64,000 nt of DNA from a phage: the sequence record PZ445527.1, one strand, 5' to 3'. This document shows positions 27,152 to 59,890 of this stretch, piece by piece (position 1 is the first letter of the stretch; every line of letters begins with the position of its first letter). A program made the translations under genes and the position numbers. The notes under the pieces were generated by a model. It saw only the letters and a program-made list of their open reading frames with translations, searched no databases and was not told the origin of the DNA.

Positions 27152-28939
27152 TTAGGTAAGGCGTTGAATTGTTACTCTTAATCTAGGTAAGAAGACGGCG
27201 GCGGATTCATTTGCATGTATAACTACACCCAACTCAGCGTTACCGTTACCCAAATTTTTAATAGTATAAATAAACCCACTTCTAGTAAATGTTAAGTCAT
27301 CTGGTCGACTAGCCCACTGTTGTGTATAACTATAGGAAGCTGTAGTATGAAATGGCACCAAATGATTAGGAGGTAGAGTTAATATTTGATGAAATATCCC
27401 ATCACCTCCTGTATAACTTTGCTGCCTTCTCCCCTGCACCTGCCATGCAGTGCCACCATATGTTCGTATAGGACCCCCTGCTGTATTAAGGTTTCCAGCA
27501 ACCACCTCAGTAGTTAGGATTACTGTAGAGTTTGCATTTGGTAGCCCAAGACTTACTGTGGATAAGGCTACATACTTATTACCTGTACCTGGGTAAGAAG
27601 GGTTTATGTCATCACCTATGTAAGTACTAGCTACGTTATTCGGTAGTAATCGTAAAGGTACTGAAGAAGGCCCCCAAACGACCCCGTGCTCATTACCTAT
27701 AGTATTATTGTTGGAATTAACATACCATTGTTTACCGGCAGAGAATTTGTAAATACTTATCTGAGACTTAGAACCCCCATAATTTACGGGAGACCATAGA
27801 GAGCCATTATTAGACCCCACAATTTCGCATCTTGCTGTAGTATCTCCAAATACTCCAGTATAAGCAACGTTATTTCCAATATATTCCATATCAGGTCTAG
27901 ATGATAAGTTACCAAAGGCATTCTGATTAATGAATTTGTAACTAGTATTTGGAAGACTAACACCTTTTATAGTAAAGTTAGAGGGGCTTATAAGAATATC
28001 GGATCCAGTAAATGGGTTACTAGCAACGCTCATACCACCATTAGAATATCTAAGGTTCAGCACATACCAGATAACTTTGGTTGGAGTAATATTATAACTA
28101 TCTTGCACATACTGCTTCTTTGCTGCTTGTGATGCTAAGTTAGACGTTGAGCCTCTACATACATAAACCTTATCTGGATAGGTTGAAGAATTATATAGTA
28201 CACTAACATTACTTGGCGTAGTACCCTTTTTACCAGCGTATCCACGTATATTGGAGTTACAAACATAAAACCAAGTATGCCCCCTTTTCCCCGCCCCTAT
28301 AGGAGCCTGCCAGTTAGGGTGCCAGAAGTCAACATTACCACTATTTATCGATACTTTAGATGCTCCGGCTGGAAATCCTGCTAGAGTCCACGCTCTGCCC
28401 ATAGCTTCGGCGGCGTACGCCCCTCCTGGTCTGTATAAGTTAAACCCAGAAGCCTGTGATATAGTACCGCCAGTACCTTGTCTAGCTATTGATTCTTCAT
28501 GCCCTAGACTAGAGTTATAAGTATAAGTACCATGTGCTAAACTATTACCAGATGCAAAAGCTGATGTAAGACCTACTTCAGCACCAGCCCTACCAATAGG
28601 AGGGTCTTCAAAAAATGCAAGAAATTGTCCAACCTGGGATTGAGTACCGTTCAAAAAACCACGATGAGTACCATTAATTTCAACAGCGGTTAGTATAACT
28701 CTACCAGGATCGTTGCTCTTTAGATTAGCTATTACAGAAGGCATTTGGCACACAAAGAACCCATTACCCGCGTTACTTAATGCACTCTCATACGTACTCT
28801 CGACTAGAACAAATGGCATATCAGAATGAAATATAGTATTGGCGTTAGGAGTTTTGTGAGCATTAATATCCCCACCATTCACCTTGTTTAGTGATAATAC
28901 AGTTTTACCATCACTATATTTTCCAGCGAAAAAACCCAT
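27152..28939 (-). CDS. receptor-binding tail protein (pb5-like)
   Basis: 595 aa Gly/Ser/Thr/Asn-rich; divergently paired with lipoprotein gene as in T5 oad-llp. Confidence 0.65.
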
Positions 28940-28964
28940 ATAATCTCCTATTATAAAAATGTAT

Positions 28965-28993
28965 TTGCTTTCATCCCTCTATTTTGCTATAAT
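28965..28993 (+). promoter_or_regulatory. sigma70-like promoter for llp-like gene
   Basis: extended -10 TGcTATAAT (28985-28993), -35-like TTTGCT 17 nt upstream, RBS GGAGAG before ATG 29025. Confidence 0.5.
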
Positions 28994-29024
28994 ATATTCA
29001 TAAATTAGAAATGGAGAGATAAAT

Positions 29025-29291
29025 ATGAAAAAGTTTGTGACTGCACTAGTTGCCGCAGTTATGTTATCTGGTTGTGCACCTGCCCCCAAACCATTTTGTA
29101 CGGGATTTGTAAAATCTTTTGGTGGTGCGGGAGAGGAACATTACGGCCTCAAGGTTCAAAAAGTTCGTATTAAGGGAGATCGCTTTCCAGTAGTACAGCT
29201 CCGTACTAAATTTGGGTGGTGGGATCTCAGTCAGTTTGACCTTAAATATGGTGATTGTAAATTTAAACTAGAGCAATCTAATTACCTGTAA
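29025..29291 (+). CDS. llp: Llp-like lipoprotein (candidate receptor-blocking superinfection exclusion)
   Basis: 88 aa; signal peptide with lipobox LSGC; divergent from receptor-binding protein gene. Confidence 0.65.
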   Translation: MKKFVTALVAAVMLSGCAPAPKPFCTGFVKSFGGAGEEHYGLKVQKVRIKGDRFPVVQLRTKFGWWDLSQFDLKYGDCKFKLEQSNYL

Positions 29292-29467
29292 TTAGTATAA
29301 AGCAAAAAGACATCTAAGTAAACTAAATTTTTTATTTCTTGGATGGTGTACTGGCAGAAACCACTATATGAGAAAAGTTGAAGTCCTTCTAGGAGTTCAC
29401 AGGCACGGTTGGTTGCGCACAAATTGTAGAATATTTTAAATACCACACTTATAGGAGCATAAAAGAT

Positions 29468-29596
29468 ATGTCAAACAAGAGAAAGAGCAGACGTGGAGAA
29501 GTGTATGATAGTTGGATTAATAGCTTTGGATTCGGAACTATCCTATTCTTTATTTTCGTAGGTTTTTGGTTGGCAGCTATGGCGGGGTGGATTTAA
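29468..29596 (+). CDS. small membrane protein (42 aa)
   Basis: RBS AGGAG 7 nt upstream of ATG; one TM helix; stop overlaps next start (TAATG). Confidence 0.45.
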   Translation: MSNKRKSRRGEVYDSWINSFGFGTILFFIFVGFWLAAMAGWI

Positions 29597-29703
29597 TGGA
29601 ATGGGTAATTATTGCACTACTAGGGGTTGTGATTATTGGGCAATGTATTTTAGATAATCACTTAGCTAGAATTGAAACTTTATTAACGGAGAAACGTAAA
29701 TGA
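29596..29703 (+). CDS. small membrane protein (35 aa)
   Basis: translationally coupled (ATGA overlap with next ORF); one TM helix. Confidence 0.4.
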   Translation: MEWVIIALLGVVIIGQCILDNHLARIETLLTEKRK

Positions 29704-29894
29704 TAGAAGTAGTAGCTACACTAATAGTAATACTAGTCTGGGCAACTTTCATTGTTTCTTATAACGCATATGTTCGCCTAAAAACTCTAGAGGCTCAGGT
29801 AAAGCAGCAACAATTTGCTATAGAAAAATTATTAGAACTGCAACGTTGTGATAGTATCCGTATTCTGCAAGTTGAGAGGGAATTAGATGTTTAG
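29700..29894 (+). CDS. small membrane protein (64 aa)
   Basis: N-terminal TM helix then coiled-coil-like segment. Confidence 0.5.
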   Translation: MIEVVATLIVILVWATFIVSYNAYVRLKTLEAQVKQQQFAIEKLLELQRCDSIRILQVERELDV

Positions 29895-30132
29895 TATTAT
29901 AGTTGCTTTTATTATCGGGATAATCGCGGGAGTTTTCGGAATGACTGCGGCTATTAACAAGCATCGCAAATATATTGCGGAAGTATCGCGGGAGATTGCG
30001 GAAAGGGAGCGGAGGTTTGATGAGAAGCGTGCGGAGTTTGAGCGGGAGTGGAATGATGGTTCTCGGGCGTCGCGGAAGAGATTCCGTGAGTTCAGACCAG
30101 AACACAGGTTTGATGACCCTTCTATGCGCTAA
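29887..30132 (+). CDS. small membrane protein (81 aa) with Arg/Glu-rich cytoplasmic tail
   Basis: N-terminal TM helix; overlaps preceding ORF. Confidence 0.5.
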   Translation: MFSIIVAFIIGIIAGVFGMTAAINKHRKYIAEVSREIAERERRFDEKRAEFEREWNDGSRASRKRFREFRPEHRFDDPSMR

Positions 30133-30243
30133 TTGACTTTTGCCAAATTCTTTGGATTACGTACGCGTGGGTGTGCTCACTACCTCCGGCGAAAATACTT
30201 AGTCTCCTAACCGCCACCCCCGTTACTATTATCATGCTAACTG

Positions 30244-30280
30244 TTTCACCCTGCAACCATTTTAATTGCAAGGTGAAACA
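30244..30280. terminator. long hairpin between convergent genes (candidate bidirectional terminator)
   Basis: GTTTCACCCTGCAA-ccattttaa-TTGCAAGGTGAAAC, 14-bp stem with one mismatch. Confidence 0.5.
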
Positions 30281-30296
30281 ATTTCAACTTTAATTA

Positions 30297-31031
30297 TTAT
30301 GCGACTTTTAGTTTCTCAATATATTGTTGCGGGCTGCAACTATATTCTGCGCGTTCTTCCTCGGTCATACTTTCCCAACATAATTGCAAACGGTCGGCTA
30401 GGAACTGATAATCATTATCATCGTCGAGAGATTCATCGATAAAGGTTTCACCTATCAATGTAACGCCGATTGATAGAATATCGTTAACGGCTTGCGCGTC
30501 CAGCGTTTTAAATCCGTATGATGCCGCCGCCGCCAATACTCCTTTATGGTCGTCGATCATCGTGAAATCAGCGTTCGGATATAGCTGCTTAAATAACTCA
30601 AAATAATGGCTTTTATATATAGCGTCTTTACTGTGGTATATTTCGCTAACTTTATCAGCTTCAAAATATTTATGTAGTGTATCGCGGGAAAATACACGGA
30701 TATTACTATCCCCACGCCCTCGCAGTCCTTGCTTGCGTAGGTAATAATAATCTGATTTGCTCATTAGTCGAGCGGTGCAAATAATGTTTAACGTGTTGGC
30801 GTCATTCATGCATTGGCGCATATATGTAACAAGCGGCAATAGTGTGTCTTGCATTATTAAATCATGTTTACACGCTTCATTCTTATACTTATTTAGATCT
30901 AGATTGCCCTCACTATCAAAGCAAGGCGCTACGCGATGGAATGAATTAACGACCGTGCCGTCAAGATCCCAAATCATGACGCGGGAAATATGCGGGAAAT
31001 TACGGGTAATATTCGTTTTAACTTGATTCAT
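30297..31031 (-). CDS. dmp: 5'-deoxyribonucleotidase (HAD family), T5 Dmp-like
   Basis: 244 aa; HAD motif I WDLDGTVV; size matches T5 Dmp. Confidence 0.8.
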   Translation of the reverse strand: MNQVKTNITRNFPHISRVMIWDLDGTVVNSFHRVAPCFDSEGNLDLNKYKNEACKHDLIMQDTLLPLVTYMRQCMNDANTLNIICTARLMSKSDYYYLRKQGLRGRGDSNIRVFSRDTLHKYFEADKVSEIYHSKDAIYKSHYFELFKQLYPNADFTMIDDHKGVLAAAASYGFKTLDAQAVNDILSIGVTLIGETFIDESLDDDNDYQFLADRLQLCWESMTEEERAEYSCSPQQYIEKLKVA

Positions 31032-59802: not shown

Positions 59803-59879
59803 TTTGGCGCGACTGATGGGATTTGAACCCACATTCCCTCCCGTGATAGGGGAGTACCATTACCAAGCCAGCCACGGTC
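59803..59879 (-). tRNA. tRNA with atypical anticodon loop CTATCAC (anticodon uncertain)
   Basis: CCA encoded, T-arm GTGGG-TTCAAAT-CCCAT, acceptor 6 of 7 paired, perfect anticodon stem CTCCC/GGGAG. Confidence 0.45.
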
Positions 59880-59890
59880 GCATAATTTAT

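What the first reader, a model, noticed from the sequence alone, without database searches (positions are those of the whole stretch)
29468..30132. Operon of four translationally coupled miniproteins (35-81 aa), each with a transmembrane helix
Four + strand ORFs with overlapping stop/start codons (TAATG, ATGA) and a strong RBS before the first, located just after llp and at the presumed first-entering end of the genome. Small membrane proteins expressed first on infection are candidate host-takeover, superinfection-exclusion or anti-defence factors. None has recognisable motifs.
Basis: partly seen in the sequence, partly recalled or inferred. Interest (0 to 1): 0.55.

Follow-up and report, generated by a model that had tools for sequence, protein, structure and literature searches.

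The report
Known T5 membrane miniprotein operon
The four tiny membrane-protein genes are real and conserved, but they are the already annotated phage T5 genes T5.159-T5.162, which sit just outside the first-injected DNA and switch on only after the whole genome has entered, so their function is still unknown but they are not "first-expressed" takeover genes.

Summary
Four overlapping + strand ORFs (42, 35, 64 and 81 aa) lie at 29468-30132. Each has one strongly hydrophobic helix and its own Shine-Dalgarno motif. All four are under purifying selection in T5-like phages (dN/dS 0.08-0.34).

They are orthologues of T5.159-T5.162, annotated in the T5 reference genome as "contains single transmembrane domain" (PHROGs 8596, 6369, 5851, 6447).

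In T5, BF23, Stitch, phiR2-01 and Shivani the terminal repeat starts after the fourth gene, which corresponds to window position 30175. The cassette therefore lies in unique DNA next to the right repeat, far from the first-entering left end.

Published RNA-seq of the close relative Bas33 shows llp and the cassette transcribed at 20 min. When infection is arrested after first-step transfer they give 0-1 reads, while neighbouring dmp stays on.

A published knock-down screen scored all four T5 genes "Not Fit". No homologues exist outside T5-like phages, and no family match passes threshold.

Best reading: these are the promoter-distal genes of the early llp ("lytic conversion") unit. They encode accessory inner-membrane proteins with their soluble parts predicted to face the cytoplasm. 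The function is untested; an envelope-protection or exclusion role is my guess (about 0.3).

The parts
28965..28998 (+). llp promoter of T5 early type: -35 TTGCTT (28965-28970), 17-nt spacer, -10 TATAAT (28988-28993), then ATATT (28994-28998)
   Evidence: Sequence and coordinates. T5 and BF23 annotate a promoter at the same place. ATATT after the -10 is reported as the hallmark of all known T5 early promoters (PMC7472727). Exact TATAATATATT occurs only here and at three early-region sites in the window.
29025..29291 (+). llp, receptor-blocking lipoprotein (88 aa, BF23/BtuB type, lipobox LSGC); first gene of the unit
   Evidence: PHROG 1119, E 4.6e-26. 98.9% identical to BF23 llp.
29292..29467 (+). 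llp-o1 spacer: no terminator and no stable structure; holds the decayed remnant of a 104-108 aa ORF that is intact in Stitch, CitS1 and Shivani, and the o1 SD (AGGAG, 29453-29457)
   Evidence: Fold z-score +1.29. No terminator-like site. Frame comparison. Alignment of the spacer across loci.
29468..29596 (+). o1 = T5.159 orthologue: 42 aa, basic N-terminus and C-terminal membrane anchor
   Evidence: PHROG 8596, E 3e-32. Found in 448 phage records. dN/dS 0.08. N-flank carries +5/-2 charges.
29596..29703 (+). o2 = T5.160 orthologue: 35 aa, N-terminal TM followed by a short helix with the motif LARIETLL
   Evidence: PHROG 6369, E 1.4e-26. dN/dS 0.15. A tandem 51-aa paralogue exists in some relatives.
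29700..29894 (+). o3 = T5.161 orthologue: 64 aa, N-terminal TM followed by a heptad-patterned helix
   Evidence: PHROG 5851, E 5e-33. Found in 313 phage records. dN/dS 0.34. Missing in 5 of 29 loci.
29887..30132 (+). o4 = T5.162 orthologue: 81 aa, N-terminal TM with a GxxxG-like motif, a long Arg/Glu-rich helix and a variable tail
   Evidence: PHROG 6447, E 1.3e-46. Found in 444 phage records. AF2 gives a single helix 2-69. Natural 7-aa in-frame deletions occur in the helix.
30175..30296 (.). First 122 bp of the terminal repeat (boundary inferred by homology), running up to the dmp stop codon
   Evidence: The BF23 left end and the T5 right-repeat start align to window 30175 and 30174. In the four-sequence alignment, three-row identity gives way to unbroken four-row identity at this point, where the BF23 left-end row begins.
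30243..30279 (.). Strong hairpin between the convergent o4 and dmp genes; probable bidirectional terminator and the likely 3' end of the llp-o4 unit
   Evidence: Fold of 30125-30300 has z-score -2.40 and contains a 14-bp stem. Coordinates. Invariant in BF23 and T5 apart from one A/G difference in T5.
30297..31031 (-). dmp (5'-deoxynucleotidase), the first pre-early gene inside the repeat; context marker for the FST boundary
   Evidence: 96-98% identical to T5 and BF23 dmp. Annotated as such.

Best explanation
The window comes from a BF23-like Tequintavirus, and the four ORFs are the orthologues of T5 genes T5.159-T5.162.

Shown: they are real protein-coding genes for small single-pass membrane proteins. 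They are translationally coupled and conserved across Markadamsvirinae. They lie in unique DNA between llp and the right terminal repeat.

Shown in close relatives: they are not on first-step-transfer DNA, and they are transcribed only after the whole genome has entered. Knock-down in T5 has no measurable cost in a laboratory host.

Inferred:
- They are the promoter-distal genes of the llp transcription unit. This unit is driven by an early-type promoter (TTGCTT-17-TATAAT-ATATT) and ends at the hairpin just inside the repeat.
- By the positive-inside rule, o1 is tail-anchored with its basic N-terminus in the cytoplasm. o3 and o4, and weakly o2, are N-out/C-in, so the soluble helices face the cytoplasm.
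- They probably act as a small homo- or hetero-oligomeric inner-membrane assembly.

Guess (about 0.3): like Llp, they belong to the "lytic conversion" programme that protects the infected cell or its progeny. They would act at inner-membrane level and be independent of the receptor, for example through exclusion of superinfecting DNA or stabilisation of the envelope.
For: Identity:
- Full-length PHROG matches.
- Same order, lengths and overlaps as T5.159-162, with 83-100% aa identity.

Coding: dN/dS 0.08-0.34 and conserved SD motifs and overlaps.

Location outside the repeat.

Timing, from Bas33 RNA-seq at 20 min without drug (replicate 1/2), then with daunorubicin, which arrests infection after FST (PMC13250531):
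- llp 1108/531 reads, then 0/0.
- o2 paralogue 479/334, then 0/0.
- o3 1704/1243, then 0/1.
- o4 104/51, then 0/0.
- dmp log2FC +0.67.

Operon with llp:
- Same strand, and the only + strand genes between about 3.4 and 64 kb.
- No terminator or structure in the spacer.
- In Stitch, CitS1 and Shivani an ORF upstream of o1 runs into its start. In Stitch and CitS1 this ORF occupies most of the llp-o1 spacer, so there is little room for an internal promoter there.
- Early-type promoter at 28965-28998.
- Hairpin at 30243-30279.

Accessory status:
- All four genes "Not Fit" in CRISPRi-ART (PMC11879866).
- o3 is naturally absent in some phages.

Independence from the receptor: T5 has a non-homologous, FhuA-type llp yet o1 and o2 are 97.6-100% identical. 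Shivani lacks a recognisable llp but keeps all four genes.

Topology: flanking charges.
Against: - No experiment addresses function, topology, translation or complex formation.
- The Bas33 RNA-seq is a single time point and is not strand-specific, so early and late class cannot be separated.
- o1 and o2 got only 1-2 reads. This is probably because the genes are shorter than the 150-nt reads, but that is my inference.
- o4 is about 20-fold lower than o3 and the downstream HNH gene is high. Simple uniform read-through from the llp promoter therefore does not explain everything.
- BF23's annotators predict an extra promoter in the llp-o1 spacer.
- A conserved -10-like TAGAAT lies at 29427-29432.
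- The CRISPRi-ART screen also scored some virion genes "Not Fit", so a negative result there is weak.
- Cytoplasm-facing domains argue against any direct contact with Llp or the outer-membrane receptors.
Confidence: 0.6

Rival explanations
1. One reading: these are pre-early factors on the first-entering DNA, made before the rest of the genome arrives, and they act in host takeover.
For: In this collapsed or permuted assembly the cassette is only 165 bp from dmp, the first pre-early gene. Pre-early T5 genes include several small proteins of unknown function.
Against: The repeat boundary lies after o4 in five relatives with annotated repeats, and in DT57C as well, although its annotated boundary sits about 120 bp further in. 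The BF23 left end lies 122 bp beyond the dmp stop. Bas33 gives 0-1 reads when infection is arrested after FST, while dmp and the A2-like gene stay on.
Confidence: 0.03
2. They are anti-defence factors made after second-step transfer. As small membrane proteins they would neutralise membrane-acting abortive-infection or other envelope-associated host defences.
For: The genes are dispensable in a defence-poor laboratory host. They are restricted to one lineage and show gain, loss, duplication and modular tails typical of accessory arms-race genes. PHROG places o4 in the category "moron, auxiliary metabolic gene and host takeover".
Against: o1 and o4 are nearly universal and strongly conserved (448 and 444 records; dN/dS 0.08 and 0.25), which is unusual for fast-evolving counter-defence genes. 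There is no similarity to any known anti-defence protein, and PADLOC gives nothing significant. No experiment exists.
Confidence: 0.2
3. They are lysis-timing regulators (antiholin-like) that restrain the holin. In T5-like phages the holin is encoded in the early region, although lysis is late.
For: They are small bitopic membrane proteins with cytoplasmic charged helices, as some antiholins are (my own knowledge of T4 RI/RIII and P1 LydB, not tested here). The lysis genes sit in the early region of T5-like phages (PMC4319617).
Against: The cassette is not adjacent to the lysis cassette, which lies elsewhere and already includes holin, endolysin and both spanins (PMC4342426; PMC11664485). There is no sequence similarity to any holin or antiholin family. 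No lysis phenotype has been reported.
Confidence: 0.12
4. They mimic or inhibit host bitopic envelope proteins (FtsL/FtsB divisome, ZapG/YhcB, LapA) and so block cell division or envelope biogenesis.
For: The only database hints, all below threshold, point this way. o4 versus LapA_dom scores 22.1 bits (cut-off 28), ZapG-like 16 bits and FtsL 17.1 bits (cut-off 50). o3 versus DivIC scores 13.6 bits (cut-off 28.9). A small bitopic phage protein that inhibits division through FtsL is known from SPO1 (gp56; my own knowledge).
Against: Every score is below its curated cut-off, and the matches cover just the TM plus the start of a helix, as composition alone would give. The predicted topology (C-in) is the reverse of FtsL/FtsB. 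The exhaustive profile search found no bacterial relatives.
Confidence: 0.08
5. They are virion morphogenesis proteins, as several GenBank and UniRef records label o3 "tail assembly protein" and o4 "tail fiber protein".
For: These labels appear in many records. The genes are next to the receptor-binding protein gene.
Against: The T5 reference and PHROGs give no such function. The genes are on the opposite strand from the late structural operon and are transcribed with llp. They are 64 and 81 aa TM-plus-helix proteins with no match to any tail family. The labels look like propagated annotation.
Confidence: 0.02

Closest known systems
T5.159, T5.160, T5.161 and T5.162 of phage T5 (NC_005859; ORF148-151 in AY587007; PHROGs 8596, 6369, 5851, 6447)
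   Same: Orthologues. They have the same order, the same lengths (42, 35, 64, 81 aa), the same overlaps and the same position between llp and the right terminal repeat. Amino-acid identity is 97.6%, 100%, 82.8% and 91.4%.
   Different: Here the upstream llp and receptor-binding genes are of the BF23/BtuB type, not the T5/FhuA type. The llp-o1 spacer also differs. No function is known for the T5 genes either.
Llp/Cor lytic-conversion lipoprotein of T5 and BF23
   Same: It is in the same transcription unit and on the same strand. It acts on the envelope, is accessory and is made after genome entry.
   Different: Llp is a periplasm-facing outer-membrane lipoprotein that is specific for one receptor and is swapped together with the receptor-binding protein. 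The four miniproteins are predicted inner-membrane proteins, have no lipobox and do not change with receptor type.
Small inner-membrane superinfection-exclusion proteins of other phages (T4 Imm and Sp; my own knowledge)
   Same: They are small phage-encoded membrane proteins made early and are dispensable in the laboratory.
   Different: There is no detectable sequence similarity. An exclusion phenotype has not been tested for the T5 genes.
Two-component spanins (Rz/Rz1 type)
   Same: The combination of a TM-plus-coiled-coil protein and a lipoprotein gene in one cluster looks superficially similar.
   Different: T5-like phages carry their spanins in the lysis cassette elsewhere. o3 and o4 are far shorter than i-spanins and are predicted C-in. 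The lipoprotein here is Llp, which has a known and different role.
Two N-terminal-TM-plus-helix proteins (74 and 153 aa) at the same position in Klebsiella Sugarlandvirus phage GlastoCabaret
   Same: They occupy the same slot between the receptor-binding gene and dmp, run in the same direction and have the same architecture.
   Different: Homology is not demonstrable. The 74-aa protein aligns with o3 at 22% identity. The 153-aa protein shows no relation to o4 (hhalign probability 1.7%).

Membership tests
T5.159-T5.162 orthologous set (PHROGs 8596/6369/5851/6447) | Full-length match of each protein to the family profile | tested here: met
   E-values are 3e-32, 1e-26, 5e-33 and 1e-46, and each match covers the whole profile.
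T5.159-T5.162 orthologous set (PHROGs 8596/6369/5851/6447) | Synteny: llp, then four overlapping genes, then the right terminal repeat with dmp | tested here: met
   The order is the same in T5, BF23, DT57C and 25 further loci.
T5 pre-early (first-step-transfer) genes | Located inside the terminal repeat (left about 8% of the genome) | tested here: not met
   By homology with T5 and BF23, the repeat starts at window 30174/30175, 42-43 nt after the o4 stop. The termini of this phage itself were not mapped.
T5 pre-early (first-step-transfer) genes | Transcribed when only FST DNA is in the cell | tested here: not met
   From published data on Bas33: 0-1 reads under daunorubicin arrest, while dmp is unchanged. 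This is evidence from a relative, not from this phage.
T5 early genes | Sigma-70 promoter with -35 and -10 elements and the ATATT element after the -10 | tested here: met
   The llp promoter at 28965-28998 has all three elements. Whether the four genes rely on it alone is inferred.
T5 early genes | Transcripts appear after second-step transfer and before the late genes | tested here: inconclusive
   Only one time point (20 min) is available, and at that point late genes are also on.
Spanins (i-spanin / o-spanin) | i-spanin: N-in/C-out with a long periplasmic coiled coil. o-spanin: lipobox. Both genes lie in or beside the lysis cassette | tested here: not met
   None of the four has a lipobox. 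Charge bias predicts C-in. T5-like spanins are annotated elsewhere. Topology is predicted, not measured.
LapA_dom / ZapG-like / FtsL / DivIC bitopic envelope proteins | Score at or above the curated family cut-off | tested here: not met
   Scores are 22.1 (cut-off 28), 16.0 (cut-off 33.5), 17.1 (cut-off 50) and 13.6 (cut-off 28.9) bits.
Known anti-phage defence or exclusion proteins (PADLOC) | Significant match to a model | tested here: not met
   The best hit has E 0.017 and 13.6 bits.
Type I toxin-antitoxin small membrane toxins | Known toxin family, or an antisense RNA family at the locus | tested here: not met
   No Pfam or NCBIfam toxin family matches. Rfam finds nothing relevant in 28900-30400. 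Toxicity itself was not tested.
Tail assembly / tail fibre proteins (labels in some records) | Similarity to a tail protein family, or presence in virions | tested here: not met
   There is no such Pfam, NCBIfam or PHROG match. Virion content cannot be tested here.

The most novel reading that the evidence does not exclude
The four miniproteins assemble into one inner-membrane complex that is the receptor-independent arm of T5 lytic conversion. While the swappable Llp blocks one particular TonB-dependent outer-membrane receptor, the constant cassette would act on a shared inner-membrane step. Candidates are DNA translocation by superinfecting phages, or the TonB/ExbBD or Tol machinery that all these receptors share. 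This would give general exclusion or envelope protection. The naming of targets is pure inference.
Probability: 0.2. Interest if true: 0.55.

Novelty: already known. Interest (0 to 1): 0.25.

Why it matters
The genes themselves are ordinary in one sense. They are four of the many conserved T5 genes with no assigned function, they have been annotated for years, and they are dispensable in the laboratory.

The useful results here are three.
- They are not part of the first-injected takeover set.
- They travel with llp as one early-type unit.
- They stay constant while the receptor module next to them is swapped.

If someone shows what they do, it would add an inner-membrane component to the classic T5 "lytic conversion" story. 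It would also give a function to a gene set present in about 450 sequenced T5-like phages, many of them candidates for phage therapy or biocontrol.

Tried and rejected
- Family searches (Pfam, NCBIfam, PADLOC) gave only sub-threshold, composition-like hits.
- Word-indexed searches with o1, o3 and o4 against 5.8 billion proteins found only T5-like relatives. An exhaustive HMMER profile search of o4 against 1.84 billion representatives did the same, apart from one 436-aa protein matched weakly (E 7.7e-5) in four short stretches.
- blastn against 5,426 complete E. coli genomes found no match, so the genes are not prophage or chromosomal genes.
- Rfam found nothing in or around the cassette.
- I looked for a separate promoter before o1. 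The consensus scan found none. A conserved TAGAAT at 29427 lacks a convincing -35 and sits in what is a decayed coding remnant. I left this open.
- The spanin idea was rejected on topology, size and the presence of spanins elsewhere.
- Literature: no paper in the library names T5.159-162 in its text. The HIDEN-SEQ and two transposon-mutagenesis preprints do not cover T5-like phages. The supplements of the BF23 and phiR2-01 papers are not held.
- A structure search was not run, because a single helix gives meaningless fold matches.
- Profile comparison of o2 with o3 gave 87.5% probability over 29 columns. This suggests common origin, but half of it is TM segment, so I do not claim it.
Full report
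WHAT THE WINDOW IS. The region matches more than 200 T5-like phage genomes at 80-94% nucleotide identity. The best matches are Escherichia phages HASG4/EASG3 and BF23. The window runs from the late structural genes on the - strand (receptor-binding protein at 27152-28939), through llp and the four small ORFs on the + strand, into dmp, an A2-like gene and A1 on the - strand. It then continues through early genes to a cluster of 12 tRNA genes. Because pre-early genes follow the late genes directly, the assembly has the two terminal repeats collapsed into one copy or is circularly permuted.

THE OBSERVATION. They overlap by 1, 4 and 8 nt. AGGAG lies 10 nt before the o1 start. SD-like motifs are embedded in the upstream gene before o2, o3 and o4, and they are conserved across relatives. 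Each protein has one 19-residue window with Kyte-Doolittle hydropathy of 2.1-2.6. AlphaFold2 models o4 as one helix from residue 2 to 69, with mean pLDDT 72.

ARE THEY REAL GENES. I collected 29 related loci from IMG/VR and GenBank. All four frames are open, with the same start codons and overlaps in most loci. Variable sites concentrate at third codon positions. Median pairwise dN/dS is 0.08 for o1, 0.15 for o2, 0.34 for o3 and 0.25 for o4. tblastn finds o1 in 448 phage records, o4 in 444, o3 in 313 and o2 in 191; the last figure is limited by the 35-aa query.

- o3 is absent from five loci, and these carry a variant o2.
- In one locus o3 has lost its first ATG and carries a stop 7 codons before the end.
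- o4 shows in-frame deletions, several of exactly 7 residues, and four alternative C-terminal tails.

These are real genes. o1 and o4 behave as core genes, and o2 and o3 are more plastic.

THEY ARE ALREADY ANNOTATED. In the T5 reference genome the same four genes are T5.159-T5.162. They form PHROGs 8596, 6369, 5851 and 6447; the last is labelled "membrane protein". No paper in the searchable library names them in its text. They do appear in the supplementary tables of a knock-down screen.

WHERE THEY LIE RELATIVE TO THE TERMINAL REPEAT. The annotated right repeat begins 42 nt after T5.162 in T5 and 42 nt after the fourth gene in BF23. In Stitch, phiR2-01 and Shivani it also begins after the last gene of the cassette. 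DT57C also places it after the cassette, but annotates the start at the dmp stop codon, about 120 bp inside the T5/BF23 boundary. The BF23 genome starts 122 bp beyond the dmp stop codon. In an alignment of the window with the BF23 left end and the BF23 and T5 right junctions, the BF23 end falls at window 30175 and the T5 right-repeat start at 30174. At that point, where the BF23 left-end row begins, three-row identity gives way to unbroken four-row identity. T5 injects the left 7.9% of its genome first (abstract of bioRxiv 10.1101/866236, listed). In BF23 the pre-early genes lie in the duplicated FST region (PMC10644984). The cassette is therefore in unique DNA at the far right, more than 100 kb from the entering end.

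DIRECT EXPRESSION EVIDENCE FROM A CLOSE RELATIVE. Phage Bas33 (HildyBeyeler) carries the cassette with 97.6%, 97.1%, 85.9% and 92.5% aa identity, plus one extra gene. A 2026 study sequenced RNA 20 min after infection, with and without daunorubicin. [quoted passage not shown] Dataset S1 of that paper gives these read counts (replicate 1/2 without drug, then with drug):

- llp: 1108/531, then 0/0.
- o1: 2/2, then 0/0.
- extra o2 paralogue: 479/334, then 0/0.
- o2: 1/2, then 0/0.
- o3: 1704/1243, then 0/1.
- o4: 104/51, then 0/0.
- downstream HNH gene: 5363/3739, then 2/2.

dmp (log2FC +0.67) and the A2-like gene (+1.04) are unaffected. The cassette is therefore silent when only FST DNA is present and is transcribed after full entry.

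Three caveats apply. There is one time point. The library was analysed without strand information. The near-zero counts for o1 and o2 are probably a counting artefact, because these genes (129 and 108 nt) are shorter than the 150-nt reads; host genes of similar size such as cydX and hokE also get 0-4 reads. That explanation is my inference. The 20-fold lower signal of o4 relative to o3 is unexplained.

TRANSCRIPTION UNIT. Upstream of llp lies TTGCTT, a 17-nt spacer, TATAAT and then ATATT (28965-28998). T5 and BF23 annotate a promoter at that place. ATATT after the -10 is reported as common to all known T5 early promoters (PMC7472727). The exact 11-mer TATAATATATT occurs four times in the window: here, and at three - strand sites in the early region.

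The llp-o1 spacer has no terminator-like site and folds no better than shuffled sequence (z +1.29). In Stitch, CitS1 and Shivani an ORF of 104-108 aa upstream of o1 runs into its start. In Stitch and CitS1 it occupies most of the llp-o1 spacer; in Shivani it sits at the llp position, with an HNH gene before o1. T5 and this window retain only remnants of it. After o4, a 14-bp-stem hairpin at 30243-30279, just inside the repeat, lies between the convergent o4 and dmp genes (z -2.40).

The simplest model is one early-type unit: llp, o1, o2, o3, o4. An additional internal promoter is not excluded. BF23's annotators predict one, and a conserved TAGAAT lies at 29427.

WHAT THE PROTEINS LOOK LIKE.
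- o1 has a basic N-terminus (+5/-2) and a hydrophobic segment that runs to the last residue. It looks like a tail-anchored protein with its N-terminus in the cytoplasm.
- o2, o3 and o4 start with the TM segment after 2-3 residues and have positive charge just after it. This is strong for o4 (+4/-2), clear for o3 (+3/-1) and neutral for o2. By the positive-inside rule their helices face the cytoplasm.
- The o3 helix has a leucine-zipper-like heptad pattern.
- The o4 TM contains G-x3-G-x2-G, and its Arg/Glu-rich helix tolerates natural 7-residue deletions that keep the heptad register.
- Some relatives carry a tandem 51-aa paralogue of o2. o2 and o3 may share ancestry (hhalign probability 87.5% over 29 columns, half of it TM).

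These features fit small oligomerising membrane proteins. Complex formation could not be tested here.

WHAT THEY ARE NOT.
- No curated family passes threshold. The best hits are o4 to LapA_dom (22.1 bits, cut-off 28), ZapG-like and FtsL, and o3 to DivIC. All cover the TM plus the start of the helix.
- PADLOC gives nothing significant.
- An exhaustive profile search of o4 against 1.84 billion representative proteins returns only T5-like phage proteins and one weak, multi-stretch hit.
- The cassette has no match in 5,426 complete E. coli genomes.
- Spanins, holin and endolysin of T5-like phages are encoded elsewhere (PMC4342426; PMC11664485).
- The labels "tail assembly protein" and "tail fiber protein" attached to o3 and o4 in several records have no support.

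HINTS ABOUT FUNCTION.
1. The genes are accessory. In the CRISPRi-ART screen of T5, T5.159-162 were each targeted by 4-7 guides and all were "Not Fit", with fitness -3.55 to -4.11 and KS p 0.24-0.91 (PMC11879866 source data). This is weak evidence, because some virion genes scored the same.
2. They are independent of the receptor module. T5 (FhuA-type llp, not homologous to the BtuB-type llp here) has o1 and o2 at 97.6% and 100% identity. Shivani lacks a recognisable llp but keeps all four, flanked by two homing endonuclease genes.
3. A Klebsiella Sugarlandvirus has two proteins with an N-terminal TM and a helix at the same place, without demonstrable homology. Proteus phage PM135 has none.

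I therefore commit to this model: an accessory inner-membrane module, co-expressed with Llp, that acts at the cytoplasmic membrane of the infected cell. An envelope-protection or superinfection-exclusion role is the most likely single function (about 0.3). Anti-defence (0.2), lysis timing (0.12) and interference with division or envelope biogenesis (0.08) are the rivals.

VERDICT. The genes are already known as T5.159-T5.162 and their function is unknown. Interest is low to moderate.

Noticed in passing
window 30133-30187: The terminal-repeat boundary can be placed by homology at 30174/30175. In the four-sequence alignment, three-row identity across the 42-nt stretch after o4 gives way to unbroken four-row identity from the point where the BF23 left end and the T5 right-repeat annotation begin.
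   Followed up: yes
window 29292-29467; L027 1995-2309; L031 4030-4356; L004 2664-2826: Stitch, CitS1 and Shivani have a 104-108 aa ORF upstream of o1 whose end overlaps the o1 start. In Stitch and CitS1 it fills most of the llp-o1 spacer. T5 keeps only a short hydrophobic remnant (MEGVMGIFTLITAIARVF*), and this window keeps only the last few codons. It is a gene in decay, and it explains part of the conservation seen in the spacer.
   Followed up: partly
L030 1817-1972 (HildyBeyeler bas33_0190); L006 and L019 2555-2710: Some relatives have a fifth miniprotein gene between o1 and o2. It is a 51-aa tandem paralogue of o2 (59% identity plus a 17-residue insertion), and it is transcribed in Bas33 (TPM about 140-160).
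   Followed up: partly
loci L013, L016, L017, L023, L025; L006 2814-3008: o3 is missing from a subgroup of phages that carry a variant o2 ending in RIERKLREYK. In L006, o3 has lost its first ATG and has a stop 7 codons before the end.
   Followed up: partly
window 29887-30132 and alignment A1: The charged helix of o4 shows natural in-frame deletions of exactly 7 residues in several relatives, and 13 residues in one. The last approximately 14 residues occur in four unrelated versions. In at least three loci with a non-EFRP tail (Shivani, CitS1, L019) an HNH homing endonuclease gene or a roughly 500-bp insertion lies between o4 and the repeat, but Bas33 has an HNH gene with the standard tail and Stitch has an alternative tail without one.
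   Followed up: partly
Bas33 genes bas33_0187 to bas33_0191 (L030 1689-2508): In the published RNA-seq, o4 has about 20-fold lower TPM than o3 (22/13 against 462/408), while the HNH gene downstream is high (525/444). An internal start, processing, or antisense reads in a non-strand-specific analysis could explain this. A promoter-like site (TTGAGA-17-TATTAT) lies at window 29872-29900.
   Followed up: no
GenBank/UniRef records of o3 and o4 homologues (e.g. OSYSP, SP15, GEC_vB_N3): o3 is widely labelled "tail assembly protein" and o4 "tail fiber protein". Nothing in the sequences supports this, and it looks like propagated misannotation.
   Followed up: partly
window 28988, 52758, 54883, 62158: The exact motif TATAATATATT (-10 hexamer plus the ATATT element of T5 early promoters) occurs only at the llp promoter and at three - strand sites in the early region. 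It does not occur in the 27 kb of late genes.
   Followed up: partly
window 59805-59881 (- strand): ARAGORN calls a tRNA-Asp with anticodon ATC (A at position 34; loop CTATCAC). T5 is listed with tRNA-Asp(GUC). This is unusual for a tRNA-Asp.
   Followed up: no
L032 5202-6030 (Klebsiella phage GlastoCabaret): A different genus of the family has two proteins with an N-terminal TM and a coiled coil (74 and 153 aa) in the same slot between the receptor-binding gene and dmp, and no lipoprotein gene. Proteus phage PM135 has only soluble proteins there.
   Followed up: partly
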